Positions 3,025 to 40,752 of a stretch of 64,000 nt of DNA are shown here, one piece after another (position 1 is the stretch's first letter; every line of letters starts with the position of its first letter). The stretch covers positions 128,001 through 192,000 of IMG/VR virus record IMGVR_UViG_3300027740_000003, one strand, 5' to 3'. The position numbers and the translations under genes are program-made. The notes under the pieces are model-generated. The model searched no databases. It was not told the DNA's origin and saw nothing but the letters and a program-made list of their open reading frames with translations. The DNA comes from a virus. Its lineage: Duplodnaviria > Caudoviricetes.

Positions 3025-3909
3025 ATGTATAATCATTTATTAAAATTATCCATGTTCTTCGAGAAATATGCTATTCGAAGTGTTGTGTATGATCCGAAAC
3101 AGCATGAAGAGTATAAATATTATGAGTCTAATATGGCTCCAGAAGATACATATGGAGAATCAAAAGAATATGGTCAAACGAAGAAATTTGACATGAATTA
3201 TTTCTCTAGGATTCAAGACCCAGAAAAGATCCGTTTATATGCTCATAGAAGGCTACAGATGCTTGGCCAAGGCTCTTCAAGGGTGGTCTATGTCTATAGT
3301 TCCAAGTATGCTTTAAAGATTGCTACAAACCTTGCTGGCCAGGCCCAGAACGAATTAGAATACAAAATTTCTCAAGATAGACAGTTCAATGAGATTGTTG
3401 CCAAATCTATTAAATCAGATAATTATTTTAATTGGTTGTTGTCGGAACTAGTTAGACCTGTAAATATTATGGACGATGAAGGTTGTCAAGACGAATTTTT
3501 AGAGAAAATGGAATTTGAGCAACACTCTCCTGTTCCATTTGATACATTAATTCAAGGAATTGATCCTAGGTATAGAGGAGAATATGACGAAGGGTTTGTT
3601 CCATATAGGAAGTTTGTTAAAACATCACCTCAGAAAGAGGAAATAAGAAGGAAAGTAAGAAAAGCAAGAGCATTGATTAAAAAATATAATTTAAAATTGC
3701 CAGACATAAAAGTTCCTTCCAATTGGGGGCAGACAACTGATGGCAGAATGGTTATTTTGGACTTTGGTTTTAATGATGATGTTAATATTAATTTTTATGG
3801 AACGCAGAGGCCAAAAAATTGGCCCATAGATCCAAATGACTACGGGCCAACATTTCCAGTGGACTTGACGATTAAAGAAAATCCCAACGCCCCGAAAGAA
3901 GAAGATTAA
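3025..3909 (+). CDS. protein-kinase-like fold protein
   Basis: LGQGSSRVVY, ALKIA, AQNELE, D..PSNWG, ILDFG; N-terminal LLKLSMFFEKYA motif. Confidence 0.7.
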   Translation: MYNHLLKLSMFFEKYAIRSVVYDPKQHEEYKYYESNMAPEDTYGESKEYGQTKKFDMNYFSRIQDPEKIRLYAHRRLQMLGQGSSRVVYVYSSKYALKIATNLAGQAQNELEYKISQDRQFNEIVAKSIKSDNYFNWLLSELVRPVNIMDDEGCQDEFLEKMEFEQHSPVPFDTLIQGIDPRYRGEYDEGFVPYRKFVKTSPQKEEIRRKVRKARALIKKYNLKLPDIKVPSNWGQTTDGRMVILDFGFNDDVNINFYGTQRPKNWPIDPNDYGPTFPVDLTIKENPNAPKEED

Positions 3910-4709
3910 TGATCAAAGAAAATCATTGGATCGTTGAAATTTATTTCTGGAATTAACGGCTCTTTTTTGTCATGTTTTTCAACATACCATTCGTTTTCTT
4001 CTGAAATCAATGAAAAACAGTGAGCAAGCCACGGATTAATTTGGCCCCACACTCTATTATATAACTCTCGTATCATACTGATTTTTGTTTTATTCATATT
4101 TTCAAAAGGAAATAGAATTATATTTTTAACCTCTTCATTATTCAATGATTCTTGTTTAGCTATATATGTAAAAATAGGAACGAGGTAGCTCGTTCCTCTA
4201 ACTTCTGTTCCTTGGCGAGATAATTTTAAATGTTTTATATATTTTTGTTCAAGAGGTATGTTTCCGCCAGTTTTTACAGAATCATAAACCTCTCTGCTAA
4301 TTTTATATTCTAACAAATCTTCATATTTGTTATTGTTAAATATTCTTTTTATACCTTCATCAGGTATTATGAACATATCACCTGCGCCATTAAGATTTCT
4401 TTTAACAACTACATAGTCAATATTTTGATCCAATATTTTTGTAAAAAATTTATCTTTTATTTCTATGTAAGGAAAGCTTTCTCCAAACACTAGTAAATCA
4501 TATATAATATATTGTAAAGAGCTTTTCACAATTGGAATAATTTCTTTGAATTTGTTATGATTTGTATCTATAATAGAAATTGATTTTTCTATATGTGATA
4601 TGTGGAATTCTATTGTAGGATTTACAATAGGATCAATTGTCGCGGCGCTCCTAAGCCAAGCATTAATTGTTGCTCTGTCTCGTGGAATGTTTAAATTTTC
4701 ATACAACAT
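3906..4709 (-). CDS. truncated/divergent portal-protein-like paralog
   Basis: LLVFGESFPYIE..NIDYVVVKR..PDEGIKRI..GGNIPLE..HL..RGTSY resembles the mid-section of large-phage portal proteins; only 267 aa. Confidence 0.5.
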   Translation of the reverse strand: MLYENLNIPRDRATINAWLRSAATIDPIVNPTIEFHISHIEKSISIIDTNHNKFKEIIPIVKSSLQYIIYDLLVFGESFPYIEIKDKFFTKILDQNIDYVVVKRNLNGAGDMFIIPDEGIKRIFNNNKYEDLLEYKISREVYDSVKTGGNIPLEQKYIKHLKLSRQGTEVRGTSYLVPIFTYIAKQESLNNEEVKNIILFPFENMNKTKISMIRELYNRVWGQINPWLAHCFSLISEENEWYVEKHDKKEPLIPEINFNDPMIFFDH

Positions 4710-26920: not shown

Positions 26921-27157
26921 CTACTCTATTATGTCTTTTATTATTACTTCGGCACAACTCAAAATTTCATTTTTATAAATTCTCCCCCTAGAACAAAACT
27001 TGGGATAAAAATGAAAACTATCTCTTTTAAAATCAATTCTAATTTTTGAAACACATTTCGCACATTCGTACCAAACTACATTGTTGGTAAATCTGCCAAG
27101 CTCAACAAGTACATGATCTTGTGCAATATTGTTGGGAACAATATATTTTTTAATCAT
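26921..27157 (-). CDS. H-CxxC-C zinc-finger protein with IKDIIE tag (TAG stop)
   Basis: DHVL..YECAKC..LSCAEVIIKDIIE. Confidence 0.85.
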   Translation of the reverse strand: MIKKYIVPNNIAQDHVLVELGRFTNNVVWYECAKCVSKIRIDFKRDSFHFYPKFCSRGRIYKNEILSCAEVIIKDIIE

Positions 27158-27720
27158 CTGCTTGCTTTCAAAAACATTTCAGATAATTCAACAATGCTGT
27201 CAGAACTCTTCTTCTCAACACCAAGAGAGAATGGGAAATTAACAAATATCTCTGAATCTGCTTCGTCTCCACCAAATAATGCAATCTGGTTTATCATGAA
27301 CTTTGCCTTGGTTGGTAGCCTCAAATTCTTTTGCCTCTTCTTATTAAAAGATAATGTAATGTGAGGTTTGTACTCATCATGGTCATTACTGTATTCTACT
27401 TTGTTCTTATCAAGTAATTTGCGAATCTTTTCTCGAATCTCGAGAAGTTTCTCTGATTTAACTTCGGCAATAATTGGGTATTCCTTTTTATCCTCTCCTT
27501 TGGGAAAGGAGGTTATCTTTCCGACAGTAGCCTCAAATGGCCTAACGTCCTCAACCACTTTATGTATAATAGGAATTATATCTAATATAGTATCTAAAGA
27601 TATCTCATCTCCTAGATAGAATAAAGTAATGTGGTCAGAAGGGTCTCTGTGTCCATCTATATCAATTTCTCTAAAAAGACGGGACACATCAGGTGATATT
27701 GGAACTGCTATCATTGCCAT
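27154..27720 (-). CDS. 2H phosphoesterase (2'-5' RNA ligase/ThpR family)
   Basis: two HITL motifs; C-terminal IVELSEMFLKA. Confidence 0.9.
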   Translation of the reverse strand: MAMIAVPISPDVSRLFREIDIDGHRDPSDHITLFYLGDEISLDTILDIIPIIHKVVEDVRPFEATVGKITSFPKGEDKKEYPIIAEVKSEKLLEIREKIRKLLDKNKVEYSNDHDEYKPHITLSFNKKRQKNLRLPTKAKFMINQIALFGGDEADSEIFVNFPFSLGVEKKSSDSIVELSEMFLKASR

Positions 27721-27889
27721 GATTTAATGCAAGAATATTATGCGCAAACAATAAAATATTCCTCCTCCAAAATATGTCTTCTAGCAATTCCTTGATAAGG
27801 AAGAGATGGTTTAACTTTAGTCTTTGGTTTTTTACCAGAAATATCTATGTCTCTAGGATAATCTATTATTAGAAATGGTTTTTTCACAG

Positions 27890-27976
27890 AGGAAGGCAGA
27901 GAATTCGAATCTCACTGATTTTACTCAGCCCACCGGTTTCGAGCCGGGTACAGCGAACCTGTCTGTTTTACCTTCC
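27890..27976 (-). tRNA. tRNA-Ser(CGA)
   Basis: GGAAGGT/TGCCTTCC acceptor, CCGG-CTCGAAA-CCGG, long variable arm, TTCGAAT. Confidence 0.8.
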
Positions 27977-27986
27977 ATAGATACGG

Positions 27987-28070
27987 AGGAAAGCATCGGA
28001 GTCGGACCGAATGCCTTTCGGCACATTCTGTTTAGCAAACAGATGAACAACCACTTGTTCTTTACTTTCC
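27987..28070 (-). tRNA. tRNA-Ser(GCT)
   Basis: TCTGT-TTGCTAA-ACAGA, long variable arm GTGCCGAAAGGCAT. Confidence 0.8.
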
Positions 28071-28076
28071 ATTTAG

Positions 28077-30737: not shown

Positions 30738-30849
30738 AACCACATCTAGCTCTATATTCTGTGATTTTGGTGTTGGTTATGGGTGATGCTCCCATCTTAA
30801 TTCTGCTTATGAAACAGACGCAATCCTGGATTGCTAAACCAACATGGAT

Positions 30850-30926
30850 TGGAGCCAGCCGCGAGAATCGAACTCGCCTTATTCCTGCTTACAGGGCAGG
30901 TGCTATCCCTTGATTGCTAGACTGGC
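30850..30926 (-). tRNA. tRNA-Thr(TGT)
   Basis: CCTGC-CCTGTAA-GCAGG, encoded CCA. Confidence 0.85.
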
Positions 30927-30933
30927 TGATAAT

Positions 30934-32307
30934 TTACTCTACACAACAGGCGTACTCACCTGTCTCCGTACACAAACATCCATTGAAATAATGCGGATGC
31001 ATCTCAATACAAGAATCAATTTCAAAACTATTCACAATTACAGTTCCATTCACTTGCCCACTACCATTACTTCCAAATGATGCCAGTGGTGCTAATATCG
31101 ATCCTTGAACTGCTGTACCACTTACCGATATCACTTCAGCTTCATAAAAATTCCAGATTAACTGATTGCAAAAGTCATCCAATGATACTGCCCCAGATCC
31201 ACAAGAAACTCCATCCGGCAATATAGTTGTTCCATTTACAAATCCAGCCTCTGTTCCCGAAACGTTTATTATAACCGTAGATGCTACAGGAACATTAATT
31301 GTAAATCCATTTGAGGATAACATATCTGAACCACTTATGGAGAATACATTCATTTCCGTATCAGTACCTGTAAACACCGTTGGAGAACCTACGTCTGTGG
31401 TTCCATTTGTTTCATATTCTGCTAGTCTGGTACTGTATGCAATTAATGTTTCCTCTAATGACTCGAAATCTACTGGCGAAGGAAGATCTCCCCAAACTCC
31501 TCCACATTGAGAAGTTCCATTAAGCACATTTCCTCCAACCCAGATTTTTCCTTTTATTCCTCCATTAGCATCTAGATCCCCTCCAACAACAAGAACGTAA
31601 TTTTCTGTATCACATTGAGATAGTTGAGCACCTACGCCGTATCCACTTAATGTAGCATTGCCACCAACCCACATTCTTCCTTCTGTATCACATCCGCTTG
31701 CATTTGCGTTTTCGAAAATTAGAAGGTTAACCGCTTCTTCACCAAAACCTAGAATGTCTGGGGTACAAGTGGTAATGCATAAGTCAGTGGTTCCGCCAGT
31801 TCCTAGATCAACAGAGCCTCCGGTTCCCAGGTCTACTGTGCCACCAGTACCAAGGTCAACCGTACCTCCCGTTCCAAGATCAATGGTTCCGCCTGTTCCT
31901 AAATCTATTGTATTTCCTTCCCCTCCTGTTCCTAGATCGATAGTACCACCTGTTCCAATATCATAAGTTGCTCCAGTGGAAGGGGCTTCCCCAGCTGTTC
32001 CTCCATAAGAGAATACAGAACCGGCCATTCCTGGTTCCAGGATGCCCGCAGAGCCTGCTTCGTTCTCAGGACCACCCGCAGCTCCTGGATCAGTTCCTGC
32101 TGTCTCAGAGCCACCTGAACCAATTATAATATCTCCTCCTGTTTCATTAGGAGCAGAGCCGGTAGCAATTCCACCGCCACCGGTAGTAATAGCAGATGTA
32201 GAGCCAGCAATTCCATCTGGACTTGTACCGACATTTATACTATTTGGTGTAGAACAAGACAGTAGAATTGTTGCAATTATAGATGTTAGGAACTTATTTG
32301 TTTTCAT
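30934..32307 (-). CDS. lipoprotein with Gly/Thr linker and choice-of-anchor A domain
   Basis: lipobox LLSC, (LGTGGT[IV]D)n repeats, DTEGRMWVGGNATL, LIWNFYEA, GSILAP.A, GQVNG. Confidence 0.8.
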   Translation of the reverse strand: MKTNKFLTSIIATILLSCSTPNSINVGTSPDGIAGSTSAITTGGGGIATGSAPNETGGDIIIGSGGSETAGTDPGAAGGPENEAGSAGILEPGMAGSVFSYGGTAGEAPSTGATYDIGTGGTIDLGTGGEGNTIDLGTGGTIDLGTGGTVDLGTGGTVDLGTGGSVDLGTGGTTDLCITTCTPDILGFGEEAVNLLIFENANASGCDTEGRMWVGGNATLSGYGVGAQLSQCDTENYVLVVGGDLDANGGIKGKIWVGGNVLNGTSQCGGVWGDLPSPVDFESLEETLIAYSTRLAEYETNGTTDVGSPTVFTGTDTEMNVFSISGSDMLSSNGFTINVPVASTVIINVSGTEAGFVNGTTILPDGVSCGSGAVSLDDFCNQLIWNFYEAEVISVSGTAVQGSILAPLASFGSNGSGQVNGTVIVNSFEIDSCIEMHPHYFNGCLCTETGEYACCVE

Positions 32308-33237: not shown

Positions 33238-33630
33238 TTATGCACACAATATAAACCTTATAGGTTCTTTAACAATTTCCCAACTAAATATACATTTTAA
33301 ACTTTTATAGTCGTATTCTGTTTTATATGGGACAACAACCGCACCAATAAGAGAACCATATTGGTTTACATATTTACATTTTAAATTATTCATGGCATTA
33401 GTGATTTTGTTAAATTTTCTTTCTCTAATTTCACCTGGTGTCAAAGAAACTGTTTCGATTATTCTTTCCATATTATTCCTAAGAGGCCTGGGAGAGATTT
33501 GAACTCTCGACCCGGAACTTATCTTTGGATCTTCCAGACTTGAACTGGAAAGAGACGTGTATCTAGATCCCACAGGTTCCCGCTCTTCCTCTGAGCTACC
33601 AGGCCTTGTATTAAAAAAAATATCACTCAA
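33238..33630 (-). CDS. hypothetical protein ending RFILCA (FLVCA-type tag)
   Basis: 130-aa ORF; C-terminus TTT ATA TTG TGT GCA TAA. Confidence 0.7.
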   Translation of the reverse strand: MSDIFFNTRPGSSEEEREPVGSRYTSLSSSSLEDPKISSGSRVQISPRPLRNNMERIIETVSLTPGEIRERKFNKITNAMNNLKCKYVNQYGSLIGAVVVPYKTEYDYKSLKCIFSWEIVKEPIRFILCA

Positions 33631-33641
33631 TTACTAAAGCT

Positions 33642-33820
33642 TGGGGTGCTCTGCCATTGAGCTAGTTATTCTGATTATTCATTTCTTCGAGCCGGCACAA
33701 AGACGGCAGTTAGCTACCTGCCTAGCATTGCTTTTGTCCTAAGACATAACGGCTGAGAGGAAATTGCCTTTGCAGGGCTGATTTCTTCAGAATAGCAAGG
33801 ATTCGAACCTCTTCTCCCCA
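33642..33820 (-). ncRNA. circularly permuted tRNA-like RNA (3' half precedes 5' half)
   Basis: TGGGG..T-arm(GG TTCGAAT CC)..GCTATTCTGA, 112-nt spacer, TCAGAATAAC TA GCTC-AATGGCA-GAGC A CCCCA. Confidence 0.75.
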
Positions 33821-33824
33821 TTAG

Positions 33825-33898
33825 TGGCCTGAATCGGATTTGCGCCGATGACACCAAACTTTTCAGACTTGTGCTCTACGTAGCTGAGCTATCAGGCC
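33825..33898 (-). tRNA. tRNA-Phe(GAA)
   Basis: GGCCTGA/TCAGGCC-A, CTGAAAA loop. Confidence 0.85.
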
Positions 33899-33907
33899 AT
33901 ATATAAG

Positions 33908-33991
33908 TGGTGATGGTTGGATTTGCACCAACACAGGATAACCGGGAGTTTTACAGACTCTTGCCTTCGCTAAAAATAGGCGAGCACCACC
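33908..33991 (-). tRNA. tRNA-Tyr(GTA)
   Basis: GAGT-CTGTAAA-ACTC, long variable arm. Confidence 0.8.
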
Positions 33992-39643: not shown

Positions 39644-39832
39644 TCAACCATTTTTATACCCATCCTTCGCCCAACCACTTCCTTTTAAATGAAATGGTGG
39701 GGCTCCTGATATTAATCTTTTAGCAGATTCTTTTCCACATTTTGGGCATATTTTAATGACAGGATCTGTAATCTTTTGATCTTCTTTCCATTCGTGTTTG
39801 CAATATTCACAGATGTAATCGTATTCTATCAT
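39644..39832 (-). CDS. FmdB family zinc ribbon protein
   Basis: YDY.C..C.H.W....KITD....CPKCG....KRLIS..F.LKGSGW. Confidence 0.9.
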   Translation of the reverse strand: MIEYDYICEYCKHEWKEDQKITDPVIKICPKCGKESAKRLISGAPPFHLKGSGWAKDGYKNG

Positions 39833-40752
39833 TTGAAAAACTCCATAGCATCAGCATATTTGAATCCACATCTAGAAGCAAAGGTTTTATCAGACGTCAT
39901 GTCTCCAACCATAATGCATTCTTTAGGATTTAGTTTATATTTCTCTACAAACTCTATCCCTATTCCAGGCATAGGTTTCCTCTTCCATGATATAATCGGA
40001 GGAACTTTAGATGTATCAAATTGATACTCTATATCTAACCCAATCAATTTATTAGTATGTTCAAAACAAGCAGTGGCAGCTTCTATTGTTAAATCTCCTT
40101 TTGCTACACCGCTTTGATTAGATGCTCCTAATAATTTGTATCCTTTTTCCAGGTATGATTTTAAAACCTCTGTTCTTCTTGGCAATAATTTTATTTGATC
40201 TGTGCTTGTTGGGAACATACCGTTTCCATTAACAATTTCTCTTAATGTTCCGTCATAGTCCAATATTAATGCTTTATTAACATATTCTGATTCCCATTTC
40301 CTAGTAAAGTTATTCTTAATTATTTCTGAAAATCCCTCGTTTATATTTGGTTTTTCAAATTCTTTGTTGGCTTTGAATAATACTGCCGGTGGAAATGTGT
40401 TTGGATCTTTTTCCTTTTTTAACTCTTCGGGAGTTAATACTTTGCCAAATTTAGAACACATTCTCCTACATGCATTAACTTGACAATCTTCTATACTGGT
40501 AGTTTGCCAGATACATTTAATTTCAACATTATATTTCTCAGCCAGATCAATAAAAGGTTTTCTATCTGAAACTTTAGTAAACAAATTATCTATAATAACA
40601 TCTTTTGATGAAGATATTAGAACTTCTAGTTTAGGCAGAAGATCAACAACTTTTCCGCCTACAAGATCTCTGTTAAGTCTTTCGTAGGTTGGATATTGGT
40701 TAGTTATTGTTGTTTTTCCTGAAGCTGGCAAACCACAAACAAGTAAAATCAT
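39829..40752 (-). CDS. polynucleotide kinase / HAD-IIIA 3'-phosphatase fusion
   Basis: GLPASGKTT, LILDYDGTL, SNQSG, RKP.PG, MVGD..SD. Confidence 0.85.
   Translation of the reverse strand: MILLVCGLPASGKTTITNQYPTYERLNRDLVGGKVVDLLPKLEVLISSSKDVIIDNLFTKVSDRKPFIDLAEKYNVEIKCIWQTTSIEDCQVNACRRMCSKFGKVLTPEELKKEKDPNTFPPAVLFKANKEFEKPNINEGFSEIIKNNFTRKWESEYVNKALILDYDGTLREIVNGNGMFPTSTDQIKLLPRRTEVLKSYLEKGYKLLGASNQSGVAKGDLTIEAATACFEHTNKLIGLDIEYQFDTSKVPPIISWKRKPMPGIGIEFVEKYKLNPKECIMVGDMTSDKTFASRCGFKYADAMEFFK

What the first reader, a model, noticed from the sequence alone, without database searches (positions are those of the whole stretch)
33642..33820. Circularly permuted tRNA-like gene (T-arm before D-arm) with a structured 112-nt insert
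Seen on the minus strand, in order: anticodon-stem 3' strand TGGGG, T-arm (GG-TTCGAAT-CC), acceptor 3' strand GCTATTCTGA, a 112-nt spacer, acceptor 5' strand TCAGAATAAC, canonical D-arm TA-GCTC-AATGGCA-GAGC-A, then CCCCA. The acceptor stem extends 3 bp into the spacer. The spacer has hairpins (GAAAT..CCT-GCAA-AGG..ATTTC; GGCAG..CTGCC; AGCCG/CGGCT). The termini can pair further (ACTAA/TTAGT around a 4-nt bulge). No anticodon is encoded. Established: permuted tRNA genes occur in Cyanidioschyzon and some archaea; bacterial YrlA Y RNAs have the same T-AS-D topology; two-piece tmRNAs are permuted. Inference: a phage permuted tRNA, a Y-RNA-like tRNA mimic, or a decoy for anticodon nucleases.
Basis: partly seen in the sequence, partly recalled or inferred. 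Interest (0 to 1): 0.8.

Follow-up and report, generated by a model that had tools for sequence, protein, structure and literature searches.

The report
Back-to-front tRNA look-alike carrying conserved RNA module
A giant soil phage encodes, inside its tRNA gene cluster, a non-coding RNA shaped like a tRNA written in swapped order and without an anticodon, and fused to a conserved folded RNA module; matching paired mutations in related phages show it is a working RNA of an undescribed family, though its job is unknown.

Summary
On the minus strand, 33820-33642 reads: anticodon-stem 3' strand, T-arm, acceptor 3' strand, 112 nt, acceptor 5' strand, canonical D-arm, anticodon-stem 5' strand. There is no anticodon loop.

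It is not an assembly artefact. Independent assemblies from other samples carry it.

It is not a dead remnant. I found four permuted elements, in three phage lineages plus one paralogue. Across them 97% of cells pair, and 23 of 37 pairs changed on both sides (0 of 500 shuffles reach this; slid controls give 1-3). The tRNA elbow and core nucleotides are kept in all four.

The new point is that the 'spacer' is the most conserved part. It is a roughly 100-nt three-way-junction module: a short hairpin with a GNRA-type loop and one bulged base, plus a P3-P4 arm with conserved junction bases. In another phage contig it stands alone between two ordinary tRNAs.

Nothing in Rfam matches it, YrlA included. 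I found no Ro60 (TROVE) or RtcB gene, and no anticodon loop can be rebuilt from the ends.

Best reading: an intact tRNA-mimicking scaffold RNA, Y-RNA-like in design but not a YrlA member, released from the tRNA operon transcript. Its function is inferred, not shown. The scan has noted other permuted tRNA mimics in phages, but not this module.

The parts
33821..33824 (-). 5' leader CUAA, directly after the discriminator of tRNA-Phe (33825). It can pair with the trailer UUAG.
   Evidence: CUAA or CUUA also precedes the anticodon-stem strand in L012 and L028.
33816..33820 (-). Anticodon-stem 3' strand UGGGG.
   Evidence: Pairs with 33646-33642. Four of the 5 pairs show changes on both sides across the 4 elements (helix 1).
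33797..33815 (-). Variable region AGAA, then the T-arm GAGG-UUCGAAU-CCUU (4-bp stem).
   Evidence: Three of the 4 stem pairs covary. U54 U55 C56 A58 and G53-C61 are kept in all 4 elements.
33787..33796 (-). P1 5' strand: the acceptor 3' strand (7 nt) plus 3 more paired bases.
   Evidence: The 10-bp helix with 33674-33665 has 9 of 10 pairs changed on both sides, the three outermost included (helix 3).
33766..33786 (-). Linker ending in CA, then the P2 hairpin G-N-CCU-GCAA-AGG-C (GNRA loop, one bulged base).
   Evidence: Invariant stem in all 5 modules. The loop is GCAA, GUGA (wetland variant), GAAA (L024) or GUUAA (E2). The bulged base varies.
33750..33764 (-). P3 5' strand AUUUC, junction CUCUC, P4 5' strand AGCCG.
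   Evidence: P3 and P4 pair with 33694-33681. P4 differs completely between members yet always pairs (helices 5 and 6).
33695..33749 (-). Variable distal part of the module: begins UUA, holds two hairpins, ends GUGC.
   Evidence: Length (46-55 nt) and sequence vary. The flanking UUA and GUGY are conserved.
33675..33694 (-). P4 3' strand CGGCU, junction CGAA, P3 3' strand GAAAU, linker GAAUAA.
   Evidence: The conserved motif YGAA-GAAAW is present in 4 of the 5 modules; the L012 orthologue (E1L) reads CGAA-AGAAU.
33642..33674 (-). P1 3' strand (3 extra bases plus the acceptor 5' strand GAAUAAC), U8 A9, D-arm GCUC-AAUGGCA-GAGC, A26, anticodon-stem 5' strand CCCCA.
   Evidence: U8, A14, G18 G19 and A21 are kept in all 4 elements.
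33606..33641 (-). 3' trailer: AGCU bulge, UUAGU, then a U-rich stretch up to the 5' end of the next tRNA at 33605.
   Evidence: No terminator or promoter signal above chance.

Best explanation
This is a gene for a non-coding RNA of about 180-220 nt. It is probably made as part of the phage's tRNA operon transcript and freed when the neighbouring tRNAs are trimmed by RNase P and the 3'-end enzymes.

The RNA is a chimera of two parts:
- A tRNA-shaped domain in circularly permuted order. The T-arm comes first and the D-arm last. The two ends meet at the anticodon stem, and there is no anticodon loop.
- A conserved three-way-junction module of about 100 nt. The acceptor helix, lengthened to 9-10 bp, runs straight into it. 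The module has a short GNRA-capped hairpin, a P3-P4 arm and conserved junction bases.

The RNA cannot decode. Most likely it stays in one piece and acts as a tRNA-mimicking scaffold, much like bacterial Y RNAs in design. The tRNA elbow would give stability and recognition by tRNA-binding proteins, and the module would bind an unknown partner.

Shown: the fold and that it is under selection. Inferred: how the RNA is released, that it stays intact, and what it does.
For: - Anatomy at the stated coordinates.
- It lies on the sense strand of a tRNA array, 4 nt after tRNA-Phe and 36 nt before the next tRNA. No promoter or terminator signal of its own.
- Independent assemblies. The source contig spans it. 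A wetland run from another study holds 33646-33807 at about 95% identity. ENA and JGI contigs carry an identical orthologue.
- Four permuted elements share one architecture.
- A model built from the window sequence alone finds the others at 80, 67.5 and 61 bits.
- Covariation: 97.2% of cells paired; 23 of 37 pairs changed on both sides; 0 of 500 shuffles reach this; slid controls give 1-3.
- The tRNA tertiary nucleotides U8, A14, G18 G19, A21, U54 U55 C56, A58 and G53-C61 are kept in all four.
- The module also stands alone, with its own 9-bp closing stem, between tRNA-Asn and tRNA-Pro in L024.
- Four of the five wetland-variant changes fall at positions that also vary between members, including GCAA to GUGA, which keeps the GNRA class.
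- The three pairs beyond the 7-bp acceptor covary, so a continuous helix is selected. That fits an uncut chimera better than an RNase P/Z cleavage site.
Against: - No transcript, end-mapping or binding data exist.
- Only five family members are known, and covariation was counted on four sequences aligned to the model itself.
- The orthologue in L012 has lost the 5' strand of P3 and has 2-3 unpaired bases between the T stem and the acceptor. Not every copy may be fully functional.
- No conserved neighbouring protein gene was found, so the 'partner' is purely inferred.
- M. smegmatis YrlA, the nearest analogue with a 7-bp acceptor-like stem, is cut by RNase P (PMC4201824). Cleavage here cannot be excluded.
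Confidence: 0.5

Rival explanations
1. Processing scaffold. The permuted tRNA fold is a built-in guide for RNase P and the 3'-end enzyme. They cut at the acceptor and release the module as a small RNA with exact ends. Left behind is a nicked, possibly CCA-tailed, anticodon-less tRNA-like pair of halves, as happens with M. smegmatis YrlA.
For: - In L024 the same module is flanked by a real tRNA 3' end and a real tRNA 5' end, so there tRNA enzymes would release it.
- The elbow nucleotides that RNase P reads are conserved.
Against: - Positions -1 to -3 pair with 73 to 75, and these pairs covary. A continuous helix is a poor RNase P/Z substrate.
- The T stem has 4 bp in E1, and the 1:72 pair is A.A in L028.
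- No CCA is encoded.
Confidence: 0.2
2. A Y RNA in the strict sense. It would be bound through its terminal stem by a Ro60-like ring protein encoded elsewhere in the phage.
For: - Same T-acceptor-D order as YrlA.
I confirmed the ORF and two tandem hairpin RNAs.
Against: - No TROVE match in this genome or in G001.
- The 693-aa ORF gives no Pfam or PDB sequence match to Ro60 and has no homologue in G001 (that record is about 51% complete).
- No YrlA model hit.
- The terminal stem covaries freely and carries no conserved sequence, whereas Ro sites are sequence-conserved.
- The two small RNAs beside the ORF lack the module motif.
Confidence: 0.08
3. The conserved module is a catalytic or self-processing RNA, for example a new self-cleaving ribozyme that helps cut up the tRNA operon transcript. 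The tRNA-like halves would be its structural context.
For: - The conserved bases sit in junctions (CA-G, UCU, UUA, GUG, GAA) around short helices, as in small ribozymes.
- It lies between tRNAs in every case.
- A 2H phosphoesterase and a kinase-phosphatase that could heal cyclic-phosphate ends lie in or next to the array.
Against: - No match to any ribozyme family in Rfam.
- A resemblance of CAGUCCUG to the hairpin-ribozyme substrate, recalled from memory, does not map onto the fold.
- No cleavage data.
Confidence: 0.08
4. A true circularly permuted tRNA gene. Its ends would be ligated, for instance by a phage RNA ligase, and its acceptor opened to give a decoding tRNA.
For: - The 3' half precedes the 5' half, and both stems are complementary.
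- Earlier notes report RNA ligase genes in the genome (e1-5380261, not checked here).
Against: - No join of trailer and leader gives a 7-nt loop with U33.
- Trailers are 7, 9, 20 and 36 nt and are not alike.
- The intervening sequence is the most conserved part.
- No RtcB.
- The host is bacterial, since the phage carries its own tmRNA, so no BHB splicing endonuclease is expected.
Confidence: 0.02
5. A non-functional scar left by tandem tRNA duplication and deletion, or an assembly artefact.
For: - Fold energy is no better than shuffled sequence.
- The descriptor score is matched by shuffled genomes.
Against: - Independent assemblies carry it.
- Extensive compensatory change in every helix.
- The wetland relative is about 95% identical here but 88% in the neighbouring protein gene.
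Confidence: 0.03

Closest known systems
YrlA (Y RNA-like A, Rfam RF02553; Chen et al. 2014, PMC4201824), the tRNA-mimicking Y RNA of bacteria and mycobacteriophages
   Same: - Order is variable region, T-arm, closed acceptor-like stem, D-arm.
- The RNA ends sit where the anticodon stem would be, and there is no anticodon.
- tRNA elbow and core nucleotides are conserved.
- It occurs in phages.
   Different: - No GNCGAAN0-1G Ro-binding motif near the 5' end.
- No Ro60/TROVE gene within 4 kb, or detectable anywhere in the genome.
- No hit with the RF02553 model.
- The acceptor-like stem is capped by a conserved three-way-junction module of about 100 nt, not by a small loop.
- It is embedded in a tRNA array.
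Circularly permuted tRNA genes of Cyanidioschyzon merolae and Thermofilum pendens (from my own knowledge: Soma et al. 2007; Chan et al. 2011)
   Same: The 3' half is encoded upstream of the 5' half. The two are joined through the acceptor ends by an intervening sequence.
   Different: - Those genes rebuild a normal anticodon loop through a bulge-helix-bulge site cut by the splicing endonuclease, and their intervening sequence is discarded.
- Here no loop can be rebuilt, the host is bacterial, and the intervening sequence is the conserved part.
Two-piece (permuted) tmRNA genes
   Same: Permuted gene order around a tRNA-like domain.
   Different: - Here there is no tag reading frame and there are no pseudoknots, and the D-arm is canonical.
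- ARAGORN finds no tmRNA at this site, and the genome has an ordinary one-piece tmRNA elsewhere.
Permuted tRNA-mimic RNAs beside DUF7873 genes, and phage Y-like RNAs beside Ro60-shaped genes
   Same: Back-to-front tRNA look-alikes without an anticodon, some of them inside phage tRNA clusters.
   Different: - No sequence look-alike of this element or its module exists in the scan's index.
- None of the flanking ORFs I scanned against Pfam matched DUF7873.
- I could not search the genome for DUF7873, because I did not know its accession.

Membership tests
YrlA / bacterial Y RNA (RF02553) | Stem-loops in the order V, T, acceptor-like, D, with RNA ends at the anticodon-stem position. | tested here: met
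YrlA / bacterial Y RNA (RF02553) | GNCGAAN0-1G motif near the 5' end (presumed Ro60 contact; PMC4201824). | tested here: not met
   The 5' ends are CUAA plus a freely covarying stem. The only similar string, YGAA-GAAAW, lies in the 3' part of the module and lacks the leading G-N-C.
YrlA / bacterial Y RNA (RF02553) | Encoded within about 4 kb of a Ro60 (TROVE) gene on the same strand. | tested here: not met
   No PF05731 match in G000 or G001. Neighbouring ORFs have no such domain.
YrlA / bacterial Y RNA (RF02553) | Score above the Rfam gathering threshold. | tested here: not met
   No hit at E <= 10 on the element. The only genome-wide match is elsewhere, at 13 bits.
Permuted tRNA gene (decoding tRNA after processing) | 3' half upstream of 5' half, with complementary acceptor and anticodon-stem strands. 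| tested here: met
Permuted tRNA gene (decoding tRNA after processing) | The termini can be joined into a 7-nt anticodon loop with U33 and an anticodon. | tested here: not met
   Every split of trailer and leader puts G or C at position 33. Trailers differ in length and sequence among the four elements.
Permuted tRNA gene (decoding tRNA after processing) | Circular or ligated RNA intermediate. | not testable with these tools
   No RNA run holding the stretch was listed.
Canonical tRNA (RF00005) / tmRNA | Detected by tRNA and tmRNA finders. | tested here: not met
   ARAGORN and Rfam call the flanking tRNAs but nothing at 33642-33820.
New family proposed here: tRNA-array module RNA, with or without the permuted tRNA domain | A 9-10-bp closing stem; hairpin G-N-CCU-(GNRA or 5-nt loop)-AGG-C; WUUUC/GAAAW helix; P4 flanked by UUA and GUGY; YGAA junction. 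| tested here: met
   Window, L028, L012 (E2) and L024 have all of these features. The L012 orthologue lacks the WUUUC strand.

The most novel reading that the evidence does not exclude
The roughly 100-nt module is a new functional RNA, either a small ribozyme or a high-affinity protein- or ligand-binding fold. Giant phages would mount it on a natural 'tRNA scaffold'. The permuted tRNA body would recruit tRNA enzymes (RNase P, CCA-adding or modification enzymes) either to cut the module out with exact ends or to protect and deliver it. That would be a natural counterpart of engineered tRNA-scaffold RNAs, and a Ro-independent class of tRNA-mimic RNPs.
Probability: 0.15. Interest if true: 0.8.

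Novelty: new variant of a known kind. Interest (0 to 1): 0.62.

Why it matters
Phage tRNA arrays are usually annotated as plain tRNA lists. This element shows that they also hold selected, non-decoding RNAs that standard finders miss.

A permuted tRNA body fused to a conserved module, with no Ro60, widens the known range of tRNA mimicry beyond YrlA. It also gives a compact, testable object of about 180 nt with a clear covariation-backed fold. It can be used for RNase P/Z assays, structure work and partner pull-downs.

If the module proves catalytic or protein-recruiting, it would be a new RNA class. It could also be a natural design for stabilising or processing RNAs with tRNA parts.

Tried and rejected
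**Collection scans**
- Pattern scans of viral, metagenome and genome collections using the D-arm, the T-arm/acceptor, the tRNA-Phe end or the spacer hairpin found only ordinary tandem tRNAs or nothing.
- Two scans used a motif with a loop one base too long, so they could not match the E1 type. The corrected pattern found nothing in viral or genome contigs.
- Two scans failed on pattern syntax.
- L016, L025, L026, L027 and L029 are chance matches inside coding sequence.

**Searches for relatives through neighbouring proteins**
- Protein-based locus searches in IMG/VR with the adhesin-like and DUF4419 proteins found nothing.
- Contigs fetched through more distant adhesin or 2H homologues (L015, L018-L023, L031-L033) do not carry the element.
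- No phage record is similar by blastn.

**Within this genome and session**
- No paralogue of the spacer in the genome.
- My structural descriptor scan does not separate the element from shuffled sequence. A second 'hit' at window 27753-27922 is a false positive: its T-arm belongs to a normal-order tRNA-like RNA, and the downstream half is absent in L012.
- MAFFT could not align the members structurally. I used a covariance model instead.

**Weak resemblances**
- The weak Rfam hit to the HTH-XRE motif (E = 5.6, unpaired flanks only) did not recur on the other modules.
- From memory I also considered a K-turn, a sarcin-ricin loop, hammerhead and hairpin-ribozyme cores and the 11-nt tetraloop receptor. 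The strands do not map.

**Expression and earlier notes**
- No RNA holder was listed for the stretch.
- DUF7873 could not be searched by name.

Full report
**Setting.** The window is bases 128001-192000 of a 435-kb virus record from a soil metagenome. The phage carries 23 tRNA genes and its own one-piece tmRNA, all on the minus strand, so its host is bacterial. The finding lies in a dense tRNA array. tRNA-Phe ends at 33825, 4 nt upstream. An unusual tRNA with a 53-nt anticodon-loop insert starts at 33605, 36 nt downstream.

**The observation.** Read on the minus strand, 33820-33642 has these segments in order:
- UGGGG, then AGAA.
- T-arm GAGG-UUCGAAU-CCUU.
- GCUAUUCUGA.
- 112 nt.
- UCAGAAUAAC, then UA.
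- D-arm GCUC-AAUGGCA-GAGC, then A.
- CCCCA.

The minimum-free-energy fold gives the permuted cloverleaf, but its energy equals that of shuffled sequence (z = 0.05). A descriptor scan I wrote finds equally good permuted cloverleaves in shuffled copies of the genome. Taken alone, the shape is therefore not beyond chance. ARAGORN and Rfam report nothing here, at gathering thresholds or at E <= 10, apart from a weak partial match to the HTH-XRE motif that did not recur on relatives. The YrlA model RF02553 does not hit it.

**It is not an artefact.** The source-sample contig spans the whole region at even depth. A wetland metagenome from a different study holds a 161-nt contig covering 33646-33807 at about 95% identity. 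That contig bridges both junctions of the 'spacer'. In the same run the neighbouring protein gene is only 88% identical.

**Relatives.** Close relatives are missing from IMG/VR under several patterns. I found relatives by three routes:
- Through the adhesin-like protein in the array I reached an ENA contig (L012) and an identical JGI contig (L014). Downstream of the orthologous tRNA-Phe, L012:4027-4169 is the orthologue (E1L).
- 100 nt further on, between two tRNA-Asn genes, L012:4275-4444 is a paralogue (E2L).
- A motif scan then found a third lineage, L028:4664-4842 on the minus strand. It lies in a 219-kb IMG/VR record (G001) and is followed 7 nt later by tRNA-Leu.

Each of G000 and G001 holds one copy.

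**Covariation.** All four elements fit one architecture. Their helices differ in sequence but stay complementary:

| Helix | Window | E1L | L028 | E2L |
|---|---|---|---|---|
| Anticodon stem | UGGGG/CCCCA | UGGAG/CUCCA | GGGGU/GCCCC | GAGAA/UUCUC |
| T stem | GAGG/CCUU | GAGG/CCUC | AUUGG/CCAAU | GGAAG/CUUCC |

A covariance model built from the window sequence alone, with my structure, retrieves the other three at 80, 67.5 and 61 bits. On the resulting alignment:
- 97.2% of cells are standard pairs.
- 23 of 37 pairs show changes on both sides.
- No shuffle out of 500 reaches these values.
- Sliding the partners by 1-3 columns drops pairing to 35-47% and double changes to 1-3.

Two caveats apply. 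There are only four sequences, and the alignment was fitted to the model. The tRNA tertiary nucleotides U8, A14, G18 G19, A21, U54 U55 C56, A58 and G53-C61 are present in all four. A real tRNA elbow and core are therefore being maintained.

**The 'spacer' is the conserved core.** The most conserved sequence is not in the tRNA-like arms but in the insert:
- After the 9-10-bp closing helix (P1: the 7-bp acceptor plus 2-3 more pairs) comes a linker ending in CA.
- Next is the hairpin G-N-CCU-loop-AGG-C (P2), then an A.
- Then WUUUC (P3), a junction with UCU, and a 4-5-bp P4.
- P4 is followed by UUA, two variable hairpins and GUGY.
- The 3' side is P4', YGAA, GAAAW (P3') and a linker back to P1'.

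Three features support this fold:
- The P2 loop is GCAA in the window, E1L and L028, GUGA in the wetland variant, GAAA in L024 and GUUAA in E2L. The bulged base is C, U or A.
- P3 covaries (A-U against U-A).
- P4 is entirely different in each member.

AUUUC pairs with the 3' GAAAU, not with the 5' one.

In L024 (contig JBINNZ010007070.1 of NCBI assembly GCA_043956535.1, reached through the 2H phosphoesterase) the same module, with its own 9-bp stem, sits between an ordinary tRNA-Asn and an ordinary tRNA-Pro. It has no permuted halves there. The module is therefore the family-defining unit. The window element is that module mounted on a permuted tRNA body. E1L has a shorter module that lacks the 5' strand of P3, and it may be decaying. 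No Rfam family matches any of the modules. The scan's own index holds no look-alike.

**What it is not.**
- *Not a decoding permuted tRNA.* Every way of joining trailer to leader puts G or C at position 33. The trailers are 36, 20, 9 and 7 nt and are unrelated. There is no RtcB.
- *Not a YrlA family member.* The GNCGAAN0-1G motif that Chen et al. place near the 5' end is absent (PMC4201824). The terminal stem has no conserved sequence. No TROVE gene is detectable in G000 or G001.
I confirmed the ORF and the RNAs. I found no sequence support for Ro60, no homologue in G001 and no shared motif with this element.
- *Not a tmRNA*.

**How it probably works.** The flanking tRNAs imply release from a polycistronic precursor by RNase P and the 3'-end enzymes. 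This would leave ends held together by the anticodon stem, plus a short leader-trailer helix that recurs in two of the three other elements. The pairs beyond acceptor position 1:72 covary (columns 38-40), so a continuous 9-10-bp helix is selected. That is a poor substrate for RNase P and RNase Z. I therefore favour an intact chimeric RNA whose tRNA domain gives stability and recognition and whose module binds an unknown partner (confidence about 0.5). The main rival is cleavage at the acceptor, as shown for M. smegmatis YrlA, which would release the module (0.2). Lesser rivals are a strict Ro/Y-RNA role, a ribozyme, a true permuted tRNA and a scar.

A polynucleotide kinase-phosphatase and a 2H phosphoesterase lie in or near the array. 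They are compatible with several of these readings and decide none.

**Novelty.** Permuted tRNA mimics are known (YrlA), and this scan has noted others in phages. This one differs by the conserved acceptor-end module, by the lack of Ro60 and by its place in tRNA arrays. Three literature searches found no description of it. I rate it a new variant of a known kind.

Noticed in passing
window 33484-33605 (-): An otherwise canonical tRNA (Rfam 50.3 bits) with a 50-53-nt insert in the anticodon loop. ARAGORN calls it tRNA-His(gtg) with an intron. The insert contains a T-arm-like hairpin. In L012 the matching position holds an 86-nt tRNA-Asn with a long variable arm.
   Followed up: partly
window 33909-33990 (-): Probable tRNA with anticodon GUA and a long extra arm. 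It scores below the Rfam threshold (24.8 bits) and ARAGORN misses it. A counterpart exists in L012 at about 3840-3925.
   Followed up: no
window 27890-28075 (-); L012:10985-11160: A stretch of about 190 nt downstream of tRNA-Ile is strongly conserved between the two phages. It ends in a T-arm with a 7-bp acceptor-like pairing (GGAAGGU/GCCUUCC). It is probably another large tRNA-like RNA.
   Followed up: partly
L012:4186-4271 and L024:549-637: tRNA-Asn(GUU) genes with unusually long variable arms capped by GNRA loops (GUAA, GAAA). Each lies next to a copy of the module RNA.
   Followed up: no
window 39829-40752 (-) and 27154-27720 (-): A polynucleotide kinase/HAD phosphatase fusion lies 6 kb upstream of the element, beyond the tRNA array, and a 2H (LigT-like) phosphoesterase lies at the array's downstream end. 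Together they form an RNA end-healing set. The 2H gene is syntenic with tRNA arrays in several related contigs.
   Followed up: partly
window 30934-32307 (-): A 'choice-of-anchor A' ice-binding-like adhesin gene sits inside the tRNA array. Its closest non-phage homologues (58-69% identity) lie on bacterial-looking contigs, and one is labelled as a Polyangiaceae MAG. This is a possible hint to the host or to gene capture.
   Followed up: partly
genome 47800-47960 (-) = L011:800-960: Two tandem hairpin RNAs of about 70 nt share GAU(G/A)GGCCA and UCGAUUYCCYAUCA ends. They lie just downstream of a 693-aa ORF with no Pfam family.
   Followed up: partly
genome 97812-98149 (-): The phage encodes a one-piece tmRNA with tag ANDNADLTAAAA.
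   Followed up: no
window 33238-33468 (-): A small ORF of 76 aa with a ribosome-binding site lies between the intron-bearing tRNA and tRNA-Asp. It has no Pfam match and is absent at this position in L012.
   Followed up: no
window 30814-30850 (-): Directly after tRNA-Thr comes an acceptor-like strand and a D-arm-like hairpin (UA-GCAA-UCCAGGA-UUGC). This may be a further tRNA or tRNA-like gene that the finders do not call.
   Followed up: no
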